A stretch of 64,000 nucleotides of DNA, taken from Candidatus Latescibacterota bacterium (GTDB lineage Bacteria; Latescibacterota; UBA2968; SICM01). The notes under the pieces are model-generated. The model had not been told where the DNA came from. It saw nothing but the letters and a program-made list of their open reading frames with translations, and did not search any database. The stretch covers positions 576,001 to 640,000 of the forward strand of contig CBDCJO010000001.1 in NCBI GenBank assembly GCA_965217865.1, in the 5' to 3' direction. How positions within the stretch are numbered: the first letter of the stretch is position 1; every line of letters begins with the position of its first letter. Below are positions 839-6,616 of this stretch, one piece after another. Made by a program: the position numbers and the translations under genes.

Positions 839-1387
839 CTACGGTATCGGCGAAGAATGCGTCTCGCCATCCCGGCCTCTTATCTCTCCTAATTGTTCGA
901 GTGCATCCCGGTGCAGCTTTCGCAAGTTCGAGGCTATCTCCGCGATTTTCCCCGTCGTCACGTGCACCTCAACGACGATGCTGTCCCTTCTGGGTGTCTG
1001 CTGCACCATCTCCCACGCTTCCCATCGGCCTCCATTTGTTAGCACTGCGTAACGGGCGCCGATTTCCGTTGCGTATCCAGACGCCTGCCTTCGATCCGTG
1101 TCCTTCGGCCCTGAATCTGGAGGCTTGGCCTCCACAACGGCAAGGAATGCACCTGTCGACGACACGAGAACGTAGTCCACCTTGTTCCCGTTGGCACGAT
1201 GCTCTAGCCGGACCCGCGCCGGGTCTTTGACGTCCCAACCCAATGCGTTCAACACCCCGTCGATAACCAGCGCCCTCGTCGCCGTCTCATTCCCGTGGAG
1301 GTACTCGTAATGCTCGGTCAGAACCTTCCGAGCTTCCTTGATGCTCTCCTCAAGCAGGGTCCCCTTGCCATCCTCCAGCTCAGCCAA
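839..1387 (-). CDS. Stand-alone HsdR N-terminal-like (PD-(D/E)xK) nuclease domain protein
   Basis: NETATRALVIDGVLNALGWD...VDYVL...VVEAK...YAVLTNGGRW; AGGGAG RBS upstream of TTG. Confidence 0.8.
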   Translation of the reverse strand: MAELEDGKGTLLEESIKEARKVLTEHYEYLHGNETATRALVIDGVLNALGWDVKDPARVRLEHRANGNKVDYVLVSSTGAFLAVVEAKPPDSGPKDTDRRQASGYATEIGARYAVLTNGGRWEAWEMVQQTPRRDSIVVEVHVTTGKIAEIASNLRKLHRDALEQLGEIRGRDGETHSSPIP

Positions 1388-1695
1388 TGCTCACTCCCTA
1401 ACCCTTCATGAAAGTATTTGAACTTGGATACCCCTTCCTTTGGAAGGGGAGAAGAAGTTTAGCTTGCCGAAGGCAAGCTAAAAGGGTGTCTTATCGTGTT
1501 CAGACCACTGAGACACAAATCGACTCAGGAGGCATACGATGGGACTCCGACGGACCAGTCACGCAGTCTATGATAGCCAGTATCCTCTGGTATGGGCACC
1601 GAAGTACCGGAAATGGATTCTGCGAGGTGACCTTCGAGCGTATGTGGGCAAGCTGTTTCATCGGATAGCAGAAGATTTTGGGGGTGGGAGTGGTT

Positions 1696-1726
1696 AATGC
1701 CCCGCCCTTTGGGCGGGGTGGTTTAC
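1696..1726. repeat. Hairpin resembling an IS200/IS605-family end; may act as terminator of the Ubl operon
   Basis: ccccgccc-ttt-gggcgggg followed by tggtttac, about 30 bp downstream of the DUF6527 stop. Confidence 0.5.
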
Positions 1727-1758: not shown

Positions 1759-2196
1759 CTACTTGCCACGACGTTCCCATGCCCGGCCCAAGGCCCGAAT
1801 ACTTTCCCAGATCGATCTCCATGAGCTAGGCTGGGTGTCTCTCCTGGGCACTTCGCCTGTTTCCGTTTGGTAGTAGCTGTTGCGTCTGGTCCAGGCCTTT
1901 TGCCGCACCAGCGCGATTTCAGCTTCCGAAAAGCCGCGCGCCCACCGGACGATTCCTTCATCGATCCAGTAGTGTGACCTGCACGAAAAACTCCAGTTCC
2001 CGATGGACGGCTCCAGGGAGATCGTTCTCCCGTCATAGGTGAGCCTCCACTCGACGGGGCCAAGAGGGGTCACCACCTCCTCCCCGCACCCGCACGCACA
2101 CCGGTGGACCACCGTGCCGAAACGCATCGACACATACAGAACACCGTCATCCAGCTGTTCCGGTATGTGATCCACGAATTCGTTGCGCAATCTCAT
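1759..2196 (-). CDS. DUF6527-family protein (peptidase-like component of Bub-type ubiquitination operons)
   Basis: HRCACGCGEEVVTPL...SLEPSIGNWSFSCRSHYWI signature; start overlaps the ThiF stop (ATGA). Confidence 0.85.
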   Translation of the reverse strand: MRLRNEFVDHIPEQLDDGVLYVSMRFGTVVHRCACGCGEEVVTPLGPVEWRLTYDGRTISLEPSIGNWSFSCRSHYWIDEGIVRWARGFSEAEIALVRQKAWTRRNSYYQTETGEVPRRDTQPSSWRSIWESIRALGRAWERRGK

Positions 2197-3383
2197 TGGC
2201 TATCGTCAGCCTGCCCCAGCATCCTGTTGCTCATGTGATTTCCGTCGATCGTGTAAGTGCTCCTGTCCTCTTTGCCAAGGTCCATGTAAAACCCCCGGTG
2301 CTTCTTCCACCGGATTACCGCGAGGGCCGCATTCAGCGCGTTCAGTTCCACGATCTGCACGTTCCTCTCGTACTCGCCGACGTCCCGCAATCCGCCCTCA
2401 CCGCGTCGTACCGCCGAGCTCTTCGGCGTCTCACAGAAGCTCGTTCTCACGACCCCTACCAGCTTGTCGTCCGTCTTCTCGATGCCCATTCCCACGTCGA
2501 CGAACGGCACTCCCATCCGGTCCAGTGTCGGCAGCAGCCACTGCCTAGTTTCGTTGTCGTCGACGGCGACAAACACGAAATCGAGGTCGCCAAGCACATT
2601 GACGTTATCGGCCTCCACATCGAATTCGTGCGCGACGACGCCGCTCCTTATCTTCGCGTACCGTTCGCTGTACAGTTGAGCCTTGGTCGGTCTCTTCTCG
2701 AGCTCCTCGGCTGTCGTCGGACCGGGCGCGCGGAACGCGTTGTGCTGCTCGAACCGGTCGCCGTCGAACAGATGGATCTCCGCGACGCGTGTCTTGCTGA
2801 CGTAATCCAGAATGTACGATCCCGTACCTCCGAGCCCGATTATGCCGATCCTGTCTCCGGACAGTCTCTCGTTCAACCGGGTTATCCCAGCGCGGCTCGA
2901 CGCAGTTTCCATGAACACGAAAGGGTCGTTCGGGTCTGCCGACAGCACCAGTTTCCCCGCGCAGGCTATCGCTCCGGGGTCTATTCGTTTTGCACACCGT
3001 CCAATCACCTGCGCGTAGTGCGTCAGCTTGTGATGGTAATCCTCGTACTTCCCCGCCACCGGCCTTGCCGAGAAGTAATGGTCGACCCATAGGCCTTCGG
3101 CGAGCTCTTGGCGTTGGCTGCTGTTCCGCAGAGCCTCGATCGGCGCACCGCGGTCGTCGCAGGGGTACTCGCCCGCAAAGTACATCGTGTGATCTGGCGG
3201 CGGCCCCGTTTCCGAACCGTCGACGGCTAGGGGACAGACGAGCTGACCGTACTTCACGGTTCGCTCGCTTGTAACGTACGGGACGCGATGCAGCACCAAA
3301 TGCCCGGAGCGGACCTCTATCTCGTAGCCGTCCTCGACGAGTCGCTTAAGGTCCTCCCTACGACTGATCAGTTCTTGTGACAT
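2193..3383 (-). CDS. ThiF/E1-family adenylyltransferase with N-terminal E2-like (DUF6791-type) domain
   Basis: GIIGLGGTGS nucleotide-binding loop, DGDRFEQHNAFR, FVFVAVD; N-terminal domain LVLHRVPYV...DHTMYFAGEYPC. Confidence 0.9.
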   Translation of the reverse strand: MSQELISRREDLKRLVEDGYEIEVRSGHLVLHRVPYVTSERTVKYGQLVCPLAVDGSETGPPPDHTMYFAGEYPCDDRGAPIEALRNSSQRQELAEGLWVDHYFSARPVAGKYEDYHHKLTHYAQVIGRCAKRIDPGAIACAGKLVLSADPNDPFVFMETASSRAGITRLNERLSGDRIGIIGLGGTGSYILDYVSKTRVAEIHLFDGDRFEQHNAFRAPGPTTAEELEKRPTKAQLYSERYAKIRSGVVAHEFDVEADNVNVLGDLDFVFVAVDDNETRQWLLPTLDRMGVPFVDVGMGIEKTDDKLVGVVRTSFCETPKSSAVRRGEGGLRDVGEYERNVQIVELNALNAALAVIRWKKHRGFYMDLGKEDRSTYTIDGNHMSNRMLGQADDSQ

Positions 3384-3630
3384 TGATAATCGTTCCGTCC
3401 CGCACCTTCAGCCTTTGCCCCTCGTCTAGCTCTCCTTCGGGTATTCGGCTGCCGGCCTCCCGGAACGTGATCGTGAACACGATCTGCGGGCCCCTGGCCG
3501 GATCGTCGAATGCAAGGTCCACTAGCTCGTCGAACGACAGTTCGTCACGCTCGACCTGCCTTTGCCGCCCATTGACCGTTATCAAGAACGTCTTGTCGTC
3601 CAATCGGTCTAGTTGGTTTTCCTTACTCAC
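3358..3630 (-). CDS. Multi-ubiquitin-domain (beta-grasp) ubiquitin-like protein
   Basis: FLITVNGRQRQV...LSFDELVDLAF...LKVRDGTIINVTRTDQS; AGGAGGAG RBS; overlaps the ThiF start. Confidence 0.85.
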   Translation of the reverse strand: MSKENQLDRLDDKTFLITVNGRQRQVERDELSFDELVDLAFDDPARGPQIVFTITFREAGSRIPEGELDEGQRLKVRDGTIINVTRTDQS

Positions 3631-3945
3631 GAGATTCTCCTCCTATGCTCAGTCGTGTCCTTAGAGATAGTTTGAAAACGTTCGATGCCTGGCTTCATAA
3701 AACTCACGACCTCGTCCGGCTCGACAAATTTTGTTTCTCCGCCACAGAATTTCTGGAAGAGTTTGTGTGTGTCCGGGGTCTTTCCCACCAGCGCGAGAAT
3801 CTTGATACCCGGAAGATCTGGCTTAGACACGCGTTTTCGCTATCGGTCGATGCCGGATAATGTAGATGTCCGAGGGCGGCTTCTCGACAGCAGGATTCTC
3901 TTTGGCGAATGCCCCAACGCCGAGTTCTTCGATGTTCGGTTCCAT
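3627..3945 (-). pseudogene. Second multi-ubiquitin Ubl gene, degraded
   Basis: ATG at 3945 behind a GAGGAGG RBS. IYIIR, frameshift, IDR*RKRVSKPDLPGIKILALVGKTP...PGIERFQTISKDTTE; matches the multi-ubiquitin consensus. Confidence 0.7.
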
Positions 3946-4117
3946 TAGATTAACCTCCTCCTAGTTGCCCAGGATCACAACTTAAGAGGGTGGCGTCCGA
4001 CAGACCAGAACACGAAGCCTTGGTCAGGTAGTACAGATTTCTGAGAATCTGAATCAAACATCGTACATCTCCTTTGAGAAAGGGCTGAAAGTTTGCGCTT
4101 TGTTTCCGAGACATTAA

Positions 4118-4188
4118 CCCTTATATTATAACCTACCGAATTATGGAGAAGAGCCCTAATAATATAACCCAATTAATTATATTGTCAA
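4118..4188 (-). promoter_or_regulatory. Sigma70-like promoter of the Ubl operon with two 16-bp direct repeats (candidate operators)
   Basis: Minus-strand TTGACA (4183-4188) with TATATT/TATTAT 16-18 bp downstream; cccttatattataacc (4118-4133) vs ccctaataatataacc (4154-4169), 14/16 identical. Confidence 0.6.
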
Positions 4189-4203
4189 GGGGAAAAATTG
4201 GCC

Positions 4204-4533
4204 ATGTCAGAATTTGGAGAGAGGCTGAGGAGAGCAAGGCAGAATAAGGGGATGCTGCAGGAAGACTTAGCACAGGCAATGGGGCTAACTCAGGCATCGA
4301 TTTCCCAGTTCGAGAAGGGACAAAGGACACCCACCCCGGAAAATATCCGTAAATTAGCTCAAATACTGGGGGTGAAGGAGGAGGACCTAGCAGGCAAAGA
4401 TAAGGGGAATTTCGAAAGGGCATTGTTAATGCGAAATATGCGAGATTTGTCCCCTGGATCTCTCAGTAGGATCAACGAGTATGTGGAGCTGATAAAGGAG
4501 AGTGAAAGAGCAAGAAGACGGAGAAAGAGATGA
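4204..4533 (+). CDS. XRE-family HTH transcriptional regulator (CapH-like)
   Basis: FGERLRRARQNKGMLQEDLAQAMGLTQASISQFEKGQRTP; divergent from the Ubl operon. Confidence 0.9.
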   Translation: MSEFGERLRRARQNKGMLQEDLAQAMGLTQASISQFEKGQRTPTPENIRKLAQILGVKEEDLAGKDKGNFERALLMRNMRDLSPGSLSRINEYVELIKESERARRRRKR

Positions 4534-5405
4534 TTTTGAGACGTACAATAGCGGCCTACGCCTCTCAGCTACGTGAAAACATGGGAATCGGTGAAAACGC
4601 CGCCATTGGACACCTCGTTCATCATATCAAAGAAGCGGGATATGAGTATCTTGAGGAATCCTTTGGTGATGAATTTTCAGGATTTTCGCAATCCCTTGGT
4701 GGAGGCAAGTATCTTATAGGATTCAATCGTGAGCACCTCTGGAGCATCAAATTTCAAAGATTCACTTTGTCTCACGAATTAGGGCACCTTACTATCCCGG
4801 AGCACCGCAGGATATTGGACAACACAGGCTTGCATCGGTCCAAGAGTGAGTTTCAATCCCAAGATCCGATTGAGCGGGAGGCGGATTACTTCGCCATATG
4901 CTTTCTGACTCCGAGGAAGTCCTTTCAAGATGCTATGAAACACAAGGAATACACAAAAGACACCATCTTTGGGCTCTCCGAAAAGTTTGGGATATCGGCC
5001 TATGCTACTATCCTTCGGTTCATAGAACTGACAGACCAGTCTTGCACTTTGATCGTGAGTAACAGCACTGGAATGATTGAATACGAAAGACGGTCCAACC
5101 GGATGAAGGAATCCTGCCAACAGAACTTTTTGGCTGGAAAGAAAATTAAGGAGACAACTCTTACTTTTGACTATATCAAGGGCCGGAAAGGGGAGAACAG
5201 CTGTACCGTCTCTCTTCGGGAATGGTTTGAGGATCTGCCTGAAGAGATTGAAATCGATGCGACCGAATCTGTAATCGACCTGGGATATAACAACAAGTAT
5301 CTGACCTTGTTGACTCCACATGTTACGGATGTGGACGAATATAGTAGGGACTGGGAATCACCAAGATCATTCCCAAAACACGGAGGTCGACCTAGTACCT
5401 ATTGA
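4530..5405 (+). CDS. ImmA/IrrE-family metallopeptidase (CapP-like)
   Basis: RFTLSHELGH (HExxH) and EREADYFAICFL; translationally coupled to the HTH gene; last codons come from the IS630 end. Confidence 0.9.
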   Translation: MILRRTIAAYASQLRENMGIGENAAIGHLVHHIKEAGYEYLEESFGDEFSGFSQSLGGGKYLIGFNREHLWSIKFQRFTLSHELGHLTIPEHRRILDNTGLHRSKSEFQSQDPIEREADYFAICFLTPRKSFQDAMKHKEYTKDTIFGLSEKFGISAYATILRFIELTDQSCTLIVSNSTGMIEYERRSNRMKESCQQNFLAGKKIKETTLTFDYIKGRKGENSCTVSLREWFEDLPEEIEIDATESVIDLGYNNKYLTLLTPHVTDVDEYSRDWESPRSFPKHGGRPSTY

Positions 5406-6616
5406 CATTTAAAACGAGCGTGCCGAATGTTTGTTATCTCCCCGATCCGTTCGCTGTGGGAGGAGGATCGGCATGCCCAACAGGAAGTACATCGTCCGTC
5501 CAAGTTGCGATGAGCGGAAGCACTTGCAGGATCTGGTAAGCAAAGGCCGGACACAGGCCTACCGGATCCGACACGCACACATTCTGATGAAGGCCGACGC
5601 GGATGGCCCTTGCTGGGGCGACGAAGCCATCGCCCAAGCGTTTTCGTGCCACAGACGCACCGCGGAAGGCATTCGCAAGCGCTTTGTGGTCCAAGGGCTC
5701 GACGCAGCCCTTGAGCGGAAGAAGCGGGAACGACCGCCCATCGAACCGATTCTGGACGGCGAAAAGGAAGCTCGCTTGATCGCCCTGGCCTGCAGCCAGC
5801 CGCCGAAAGGTCGTAGCCGCTGGACGCTGGAGTTGCTCGCTGACAAGCTGGTTGAACTCAACATCGTCGAGAGCATCTCCTATCGGACCGTGCAACGGGC
5901 GCTCAAAAAAACGAACTCAAGCCCCATCTGAAAACGTGCTGGGTGATTCCGCCCAGGGAAAACGCCGCATTCGTAGCTTGCATGGAGAATCTTCTGGATC
6001 TGTATCACCGGCCCTATGATCCGGAAAGGCCGCTTTTGGCCATGGACGAACACCCCGTGCAGTTGACCGGAGAGACACGCATCCCGGTCCCGGAAAAACC
6101 GGGGCATCCCCGACGTCACGACTATGAGTATGAGCGTAACGGCACAGCCGCGAATTTCTTGTTCCTCGAGCCCCTGACCGGACGTCGGAAGGTCCACGTC
6201 CGGGAACGCAGGACCGCCGTAGACTGGGCTTACGAGATCCAGGAACTGCTTGAGGTGGACTACCCGGATGCGCAAGTCGTGGTGCTGGTCTGCGACAACC
6301 TCAGCACTCACACCATCGCATCTCTCTACAAGGCCTTCCCACCCGAAAAGGCCCGTTCTCTAGCCAAACGCCTCGAATTGCACTACACGCCCAAGCACGG
6401 TAGCTGGCTCAATATCGCCGAGATCGAACTGAGCGTCCTTGCCAGACAATGCCTGCACAGCCGCATTCCTGACCTGCAGACCCTCACCAACGAAGTGGAG
6501 GCCTGGAAATGTGATCGAAACGAGAAACACAGAACCCTTGATTGGCAGTTCACGACCACCGACGCCCGCATCAAACTGAAGAAGCTATATCCCAAGTTTT
6601 AGGTGTCATGGTGTAC
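5395..6616 (+). mobile_element. IS630-family insertion sequence, full length
   Basis: Imperfect IRs ctagtacctattgaca / tgtcatggtgtactag in CTAG context (TA duplication); two ORFs joined at an A7 slippery run (5905-5911). Confidence 0.92.
5473..6602 (+). CDS. IS630 transposase (programmed frameshift; ORFs 5431-5931 and 5943-6602)
   Basis: HTH part RWTLELLADKLVEL; DDE part MDEHPVQL...DNLSTH...TPKHGSWLNIAEIE. Confidence 0.9.

What the first reader, a model, noticed from the sequence alone, without database searches (positions are those of the whole stretch)
1759..5405. Bub-type bacterial ubiquitination operon with a divergent CapH/CapP-like switch, preserved in a decayed region
Seen: coupled Ubl (3358-3630), E2-like/ThiF (2193-3383) and DUF6527 (1759-2196) genes, with a divergent XRE-HTH and HExxH peptidase, all open while neighbours are fragments. 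The IS630 landed in the last codons of the peptidase and spared it. Known: Ubl + ThiF + DUF6527 operons are the recently described Bub pathways, proposed to be antiphage with unknown targets; HTH + IrrE-like peptidase pairs (CapH/CapP) give DNA-damage induction of CBASS. Inference: a damage-inducible protein-conjugation defence still under selection. The intact Ubl ends in TDQS rather than Gly, and no separate E2 gene is visible.
Basis: partly seen in the sequence, partly recalled or inferred. Interest (0 to 1): 0.72.

Follow-up and report, generated by a model that had tools for sequence, protein, structure and literature searches.

The report
Spliced-in Bub operon under borrowed switch
This is an intact copy of a known bacterial ubiquitin-like tagging operon (Type II Bub) that sits directly behind the broken first gene of a different Bub operon and has likely inherited that operon's predicted DNA-damage switch; its close relatives carry a fourth, nuclease-like gene that is cut off by an insertion here and whose role is untested.

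Summary
The genes are real and open. They form a Type II Bub operon: BubA (3358-3630), BubBD (2193-3383) and BubE (1759-2196), opposite a CapH/CapP-like pair. That pairing is published (168 of 544 Bub operons). All known catalytic residues are kept.

(1) The locus is a chimera: 3649-3945 is a broken Type I bubA, joined at 3649 to a cassette shared with several phyla. (2) A standalone HsdR-N nuclease-like gene (839-1387) follows bubE in 11 of 12 members of this clade; here an IS200/605 remnant separates it.

The IS630 sits about 20 codons past CapP's conserved end, so sparing it shows nothing about selection. Substitution counts support constraint on bubA/bubBD along this lineage, not on the nuclease. 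No Bub has been shown to stop phage. The scan noted a BubBD on other DNA before.

The parts
839..1387 (-). Standalone HsdR-N-like PD-(D/E)xK nuclease-like gene; fourth gene of this Bub clade. Here 182 aa (stop lost; closest relatives 165 aa) and separated from bubE
   Evidence: Pfam HSDR_N_2 30.8 bits, cut-off 25; D71, E86, K88, Y105 invariant in 66 sequences; directly behind bubE in 11 of 12 clade members
1410..1726 (.). 317-nt IS200/IS605 remnant inserted between bubE and the nuclease gene; holds a terminator-like hairpin at 1482-1458 (- strand)
   Evidence: Y1_Tnp fragment; absent from L011; contigs of runs X4 and X7 skip 1409-1727; 97.8% copies elsewhere in the genome; hairpin
1759..2196 (-). 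bubE, DUF6527 Ser-His protease (C33/C35/C37/C72, S64, H75 kept)
2193..3383 (-). bubBD, E2 (DUF6791)-E1 (ThiF) fusion; S105, R218, Y338 and H65 kept; R107 where most have Lys
3358..3630 (-). bubA, single beta-grasp Ubl ending in Ser; overlaps the bubBD start
3631..3649 (-). Ribosome-binding site of bubA and the junction (3649) between the incoming Type II cassette and the older locus
   Evidence: L011 and L012 align only up to 3649; Type I bubA genes align only from 3648-3649; contigs of X7, X8, X9 leave the window at 3646-3649
3649..3945 (-). Pseudogene of a Type I bubA: one extra base at 3853-3854, a TAG at 3842-3840 in the ancestral frame, cut where relatives have the conserved Gly codon; present frame gives 40 aa
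   Evidence: 76-78% nt to intact genes in G029, G100, G113; positions; lesions present in contigs of four studies
4118..4190 (.). Predicted leftward promoter (-35 at 4188, 11 of 12 consensus) and two 27-nt repeats (4118-4144, 4154-4180), candidate CapH operators
   Evidence: conserved in G018, G014, G104; binding untested
4204..4533 (+). capH-like XRE HTH repressor (alternative TTG start at 4198)
4530..5405 (+). capP-like Zn peptidase (H82-E83-x-x-H86, E115; no cysteine-switch Cys)
   Evidence: PDB 7t5t E 1.7e-8
5395..6616 (+). IS630, inserted at a TA in codon 289 of capP; supplies its last codons and stop
   Evidence: a contig of X7 leaves the window at 5394

Best explanation
The locus is an intact Type II Bub ubiquitin-like conjugation cassette joined at position 3649 to the broken first gene of a Type I Bub operon, so it likely now runs from that older operon's CapH/CapP-type promoter and is predicted to be induced by DNA damage. 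Shown here: gene content, junction, lesions, kept catalytic residues. Inferred from the E. coli and Citrobacter enzymes: BubBD adenylates the C-terminal Ser90 of BubA (R218), takes it as an oxyester on Tyr338, passes it to Ser105 of its E2 domain and on to unknown targets; BubE (Ser64-His75) removes it. Inferred from CBASS CapH/CapP: CapH binds the repeats over the leftward promoter, and ssDNA-activated CapP cleaves it. The mRNA would first pass the dead bubA remnant (40-aa product), then bubA-bubBD-bubE. The clade's fourth gene, a nuclease-like domain, is likely uncoupled in this copy by the IS200/605 remnant.
For: Families and fold. S105, H65, R218, Y338 are present in 120 of 120 close and 6 of 6 distant homologs. 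The matching E. coli residues S106, R219, Y342 are required and K108 is not. C-terminal Ser in 13 of 13 aligned Ubls and 5 of 5 plasmid Ubls. Junction seen from both sides in genomes and in contigs. GC is 56-60% in the cassette and 45-51% in remnant and regulators. The three closest capH/capP pairs front three other cargo operons. The Type I E2 has no hit in G000 and the Type I JAB-E1 only a 25% one. Window-branch changes in bubA+bubBD are 20 synonymous to 11 non-synonymous, p 3e-6. Promoter 11 of 12 and conserved.
Against: No expression, binding or cleavage data. The window branch includes time in earlier hosts, so it does not prove selection in this host. No genome with this capH/capP clade in front of an intact Type I Bub was found among 132 searched, so the ancestor is inferred. 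The promoter scan gave 5 sites against 2.3 +/- 1.5 by chance. About 190 untranslated bases precede bubA and could be polar. The nuclease gene shows no constraint on this branch (7:15, p 0.32), which could be the start of decay of the whole cassette. Bub has not been shown to protect against phage.
Confidence: 0.62

Rival explanations
1. The cassette is a recent, silent or neutral passenger. It is intact only because it arrived lately, and it is not usefully expressed from the borrowed promoter.
For: 95% nt identity to a copy in an Acidobacteriota MAG; surrounded by fragments and IS; the fourth gene is already interrupted and unconstrained; not found in the 2 same-family genomes, both fragmented.
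Against: The junction and both lesions are shared with a haplotype about 1% divergent (X7), in which capH/capP differ by 4 synonymous and 2 non-synonymous changes, p about 0.03 on 6 sites. Both lesions fall in the 0.3-kb remnant and none in 3.1 kb of the five genes (p 0.04 against capH/capP alone).
Confidence: 0.25
2. The operon is active but is a general stress-response or mobile-element-linked conjugation system, not antiphage; the HTH/peptidase pair may act like ImmR/ImmA.
For: No phage protection shown for any Bub; CapH/CapP are related to ImmR/ImmA and DdrO/IrrE (passages).
Against: The closest capH/capP pairs sit opposite TIR/caspase, E2-E1-JAB-patatin and E1-type operons; the pair is divergent to the operon as in CBASS; the neighbourhood holds restriction-type fragments.
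Confidence: 0.1
3. 3358-3945 was one two-domain BubA now broken by frameshifts, so the operon itself is decaying.
For: Two Multi_ubiq matches lie in tandem, and 38 of the published Bub Ubls have two domains.
Against: All 8 close relatives start a one-domain BubA at the same place with unrelated upstream DNA. The upstream piece matches Type I bubA genes that are followed by an E2, not a Ubl.
Confidence: 0.03

Closest known systems
Type II Bub (6E.2 / DUF6527) operon, E. coli ZDHYS365 (Ye et al., bioRxiv 10.1101/2024.11.21.623953)
   Same: BubA, E2-E1 fusion BubBD and BubE in the same order; Ser/Tyr/Arg catalytic set; Ubl ending in Ser; no JAB peptidase.
   Different: One-domain Ubl (E. coli has three); Arg for Lys beside the E2 serine (32 of 120 close homologs share it); fourth nuclease-like gene in this clade; Type I bubA remnant in front.
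CapH+CapP (Lau et al., bioRxiv 10.1101/2022.04.27.489752)
   Same: HTH plus HExxH peptidase, divergent from the cargo; already reported beside a 6e.2 operon and in 168 of 544 Bub operons.
   Different: No cysteine switch (absent from about two thirds of CBASS CapP); the Phe-Arg cleavage site of E. coli CapH is not present as such; last codons come from an IS630.
Type I Bub with separate Ubl and E2 (G029, G100, G113; also listed in the paper's Table S1)
   Same: The 3649-3945 remnant is 76-78% identical in DNA to their bubA.
   Different: Here it is frameshifted, has a stop, lacks the Gly, and its E2 and JAB-E1 partners were not found in the genome.
HsdR N-terminal nuclease domain of type I restriction enzymes (PF13588; PDB 3h1t)
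   Same: D...E-A-K...Q-x-x-x-Y motif.
   Different: Standalone 165-aa protein without helicase, placed behind bubE; activity untested.

Membership tests
Type II Bub | Ubl, E2-E1 fusion and DUF6527 in one operon, no JAB peptidase | tested here: met
   definition
Type II Bub | BubA has a beta-grasp fold | tested here: met
Type II Bub | E2 invariant Ser, adenylation Arg, crossover-loop Tyr | tested here: met
   S105, R218, Y338; mapped to E. coli S106, R219, Y342 by motif from Table S2, not by a computed alignment
Type II Bub | Lys and His accompanying the E2 serine | tested here: inconclusive
   H65 invariant (its match to the paper's His is my inference); Lys is Arg107 here and in 32 of 120; K108 mutation was tolerated in E. 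coli
Type II Bub | BubE C4 zinc site and Ser-His dyad | tested here: met
Type II Bub | ATP-dependent Ubl conjugation through oxyesters | not testable with these tools
   needs biochemistry
CapH+CapP | HTH and M78 peptidase upstream of and opposite to the cargo | tested here: met
CapH+CapP | HExxH plus third Glu ligand; full three-domain length | tested here: met
   H82, E83, H86, E115; PADLOC capP profile 31-240 of 242; the GAF fold itself was not modelled
CapH+CapP | Cysteine switch (optional, 134 of 408) | tested here: not met
   no Cys between H86 and E115; optional
CapH+CapP | ssDNA-stimulated cleavage of CapH and promoter binding | not testable with these tools
   candidate repeats only
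Type I Bub | Gly-terminated Ubl, E2 and JAB-E1 | tested here: not met
   only a broken bubA remains

The most novel reading that the evidence does not exclude
A four-gene Type II Bub variant that moves between phyla carries its own HsdR-N nuclease as the long-missing effector or substrate: BubA tagging switches the nuclease on or off, giving Bub a readable output. This window is a natural derivative in which the nuclease was cut off while the cassette captured a new damage switch.
Probability: 0.15. Interest if true: 0.7.

Novelty: new variant of a known kind. Interest (0 to 1): 0.33.

Why it matters
The core is ordinary: a published operon with a published regulator. Two extras have value. 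The junction is a base-level record of one Bub type replacing another behind a CapH/CapP promoter. And since Bub targets and phenotype are unknown, a clade that keeps a nuclease-like gene behind bubE across phyla offers a concrete candidate substrate or effector. The intact four-gene relatives (L011, L015, L067) are better test objects than this copy.

Tried and rejected
AlphaFold of the nuclease on 8 sequences failed (pLDDT 38.7) and was not used. Complex prediction of the nuclease with BubBD/BubA/BubE was not available, so binding is open. No RNA holder was listed for the stretch, which says nothing on expression. The metagenome scan with the nuclease alignment gave 1 locus; the viral scan with BubBD gave 2 distant loci without the nuclease. 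ESM Atlas only returned HSDR_N clusters. An assembly error as cause of the bubA lesions was rejected. R107 as a damaging change was rejected. The IS630 'sparing' argument was rejected. The 31 contig lengths shared by the top-120 lists are only indirect support for linkage. bubE could not be polarised on the window branch (indels in outgroups); its pairwise dN/dS to L011 is 0.42.
Full report
Observation. The five ORFs exist as stated. Pfam gives Multi_ubiq for 3358-3630, DUF6791 (residues 10-160) plus ThiF for 2193-3383, DUF6527 for 1759-2196, HTH_3 for 4198-4533 and Peptidase_M78 for 4530-5405, all over cut-off. PADLOC's best hits for the last two are capH and capP. The Ubl model (pLDDT 83) matches E. 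coli BubA 9cd2 at TM 0.73. Neighbours are fragments.

Identity. Ye et al. (10.1101/2024.11.21.623953; parts 1-5 of 6 read; supplement PDF part 1 of 2 and Table S1 part 1 of 7) define Type II Bub as BubA, an E2-E1 fusion BubBD and BubE, and count CapH+CapP beside 168 of 544 Bub operons. Lau et al. (10.1101/2022.04.27.489752; passages) had already shown the pair beside a 6e.2 operon. So the missing E2 is the fused DUF6791 domain. The E. coli BubA that conjugated in vitro ends in TDKS. Ser is last in 13 of 13 aligned Ubls and 5 of 5 plasmid Ubls. The preprint has no hit for 'C-terminal serine'. S105, H65, R218 and Y338 of BubBD occur in 120 of 120 close and 6 of 6 distant homologs. Position 107 is Arg here and in 32 of 120, Lys in 86, and the E. 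coli Lys was dispensable. BubE keeps its four Cys, S64 and H75. CapP keeps H82, E83, H86, E115 and has no cysteine switch.

The locus is a chimera. A second, weaker Multi_ubiq match lies at 3627-3830. With the DNA up to an ATG at 3945 it is 76-78% identical to intact bubA genes of G029, G100 and G113, found in 3 of 132 genomes searched. In G029 that gene is followed by Prok-E2_E, JAB-ThiF and DUF6527, that is, Type I Bub. The window copy has one extra base at 3853-3854, a TAG at 3842-3840, and ends where relatives have the conserved Gly codon. A genome scan found 11 BubBD loci, 8 at 76-96% identity, whose titles span Acidobacteriota, Pseudomonadota, Gemmatimonadota and Bacteroidota. I recall several of these lineages as sponge-associated; that was not tested. 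Their DNA matches stop at 3600-3649, the two closest at 3649. None of the 8 shows this capH/capP upstream, though L018 has only 0.5 kb of flank. Contigs from X7, X8 and X9 leave the window at 3646-3649, on both sides in X8 and X9. The lesions are not assembly errors: contigs of X1, X2, X3 and X4 match without difference, and X7 (11 differences in 1189 nt) and X9 match without gap, four studies in all, one of which may be the source. X1, X2 and X7 bridge the junction. GC is 56-60% in the cassette and 45-51% in remnant, capH and capP. The three closest capH/capP pairs (G018, G014, G104) front a ThiF-containing operon, a TIR/caspase operon and an E2-E1-JAB-patatin operon. The Type I E2 has no hit in G000. 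Whether the join came from a deletion between two adjacent operons or from recombination cannot be told, and the ancestral combination was not found.

A fourth gene. 839-1387 encodes an HsdR-N-like domain (Pfam HSDR_N_2 over cut-off; PDB 3h1t at E 0.001) with D71, E86, K88 and Y105 invariant in 66 aligned sequences. It follows bubE directly in 7 of the 8 close loci and in L046, G097 and G117. On a tree of 21 BubBD proteins, the 11 with this gene (window included) and one without form one clade (100/99); 0 of 9 outside have it. That is one gain and one loss, so it shows retention, not co-evolution. More distant homologs (33-41% identity) mostly lie in frames of about 300 aa or more, without Bub genes within 1.5 kb. 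In the window a 317-nt IS200/605 remnant with a terminator-like hairpin separates it from bubE, and it has lost its stop. I found no description of this gene or in scan notes. Table S1 has no column for accessory genes, and the journal versions were not read.

Selection. The IS630 (5395-6616) has near-identical copies elsewhere and sits in codon 289, about 20 residues past the end of the region conserved with relatives of 269-278 aa. A contig of X7 leaves the window at 5394, which fits an IS-free allele. Sparing is therefore uninformative. On the branch to the window, bubA+bubBD carry 20 synonymous and 11 non-synonymous changes (p 3e-6), the nuclease 7 and 15 (p 0.32; difference p 0.03); this branch includes earlier hosts. 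Between the two haplotypes, capH/capP (4204-4805) differ by 4 synonymous and 2 non-synonymous changes (p about 0.03). I assigned the 11 listed rows to that contig by inference; the 2 differences beyond 4805 were not shown. Both lesions fall in the remnant and none in the five genes. This is modest support.

Mechanism. Committed reading: CapH represses a leftward promoter (-35 at 4188, repeats at 4118-4144 and 4154-4180, conserved in three relatives). ssDNA-activated CapP cleaves it (inferred; 10.64898/2026.05.16.725639, part 1 of 3). BubBD then transfers BubA through Tyr338 and Ser105 to unknown targets, and BubE reverses this (inferred). Antiphage function is unproven: the defining paper found no protecting Bub, and PMC13373217 (passages) says the same in 2026. 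Gong et al. (10.1101/2024.11.21.623966; parts 1-2 of 5) report one-domain Ubls in 40% of Bub operons.

Verdict. A known system with a known regulator, patchy in the phylum (DUF6791 in 10 of 168 genomes). The additions are a sharp Type I-to-Type II swap and a clade-wide accessory nuclease-like gene. Interest 0.33.

Noticed in passing
G000:C2 near 183756, 2458121 and 3538921 (L025-L027): Three 99%-identical copies of a second, divergent Ubl-ThiF-DUF6527 operon (about 36-40% to BubBD, no DUF6791 hit; Ubl also ends in Ser), behind an IrrE-like peptidase and, in L027, an ECF-like sigma factor. One copy is rearranged.
   Followed up: partly
G000:C2:595292-596964: A homolog (48%) of the 490-aa ThiF-containing protein that lies opposite capH/capP in G018, with a neighbouring small gene.
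   Followed up: no
L035:4740-7689 (G018): Tandemly duplicated pair of a 76-aa protein ending in PTPVA and a 125-aa protein, neither with a Pfam hit, ahead of a ThiF protein; possibly another Ubl/E2 system with a non-Gly end.
   Followed up: partly
L046:1448-2928 and L022:6236-7755: A look-alike co-directional HTH plus peptidase module precedes a Type II Bub in L046 and a Type I Bub in L022, another sign of regulator-cargo shuffling; compared by eye only.
   Followed up: partly
P0094: A 512-aa BubBD-BubE fusion at 80% identity.
   Followed up: no
window 1410-1726: The 317-nt IS200/605 remnant has several 97.8% full-length copies, so it likely moves as a non-autonomous element.
   Followed up: partly
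G000:C2:3212804-3212884: A 27-codon scrap 85% identical to the start of the nuclease gene.
   Followed up: no
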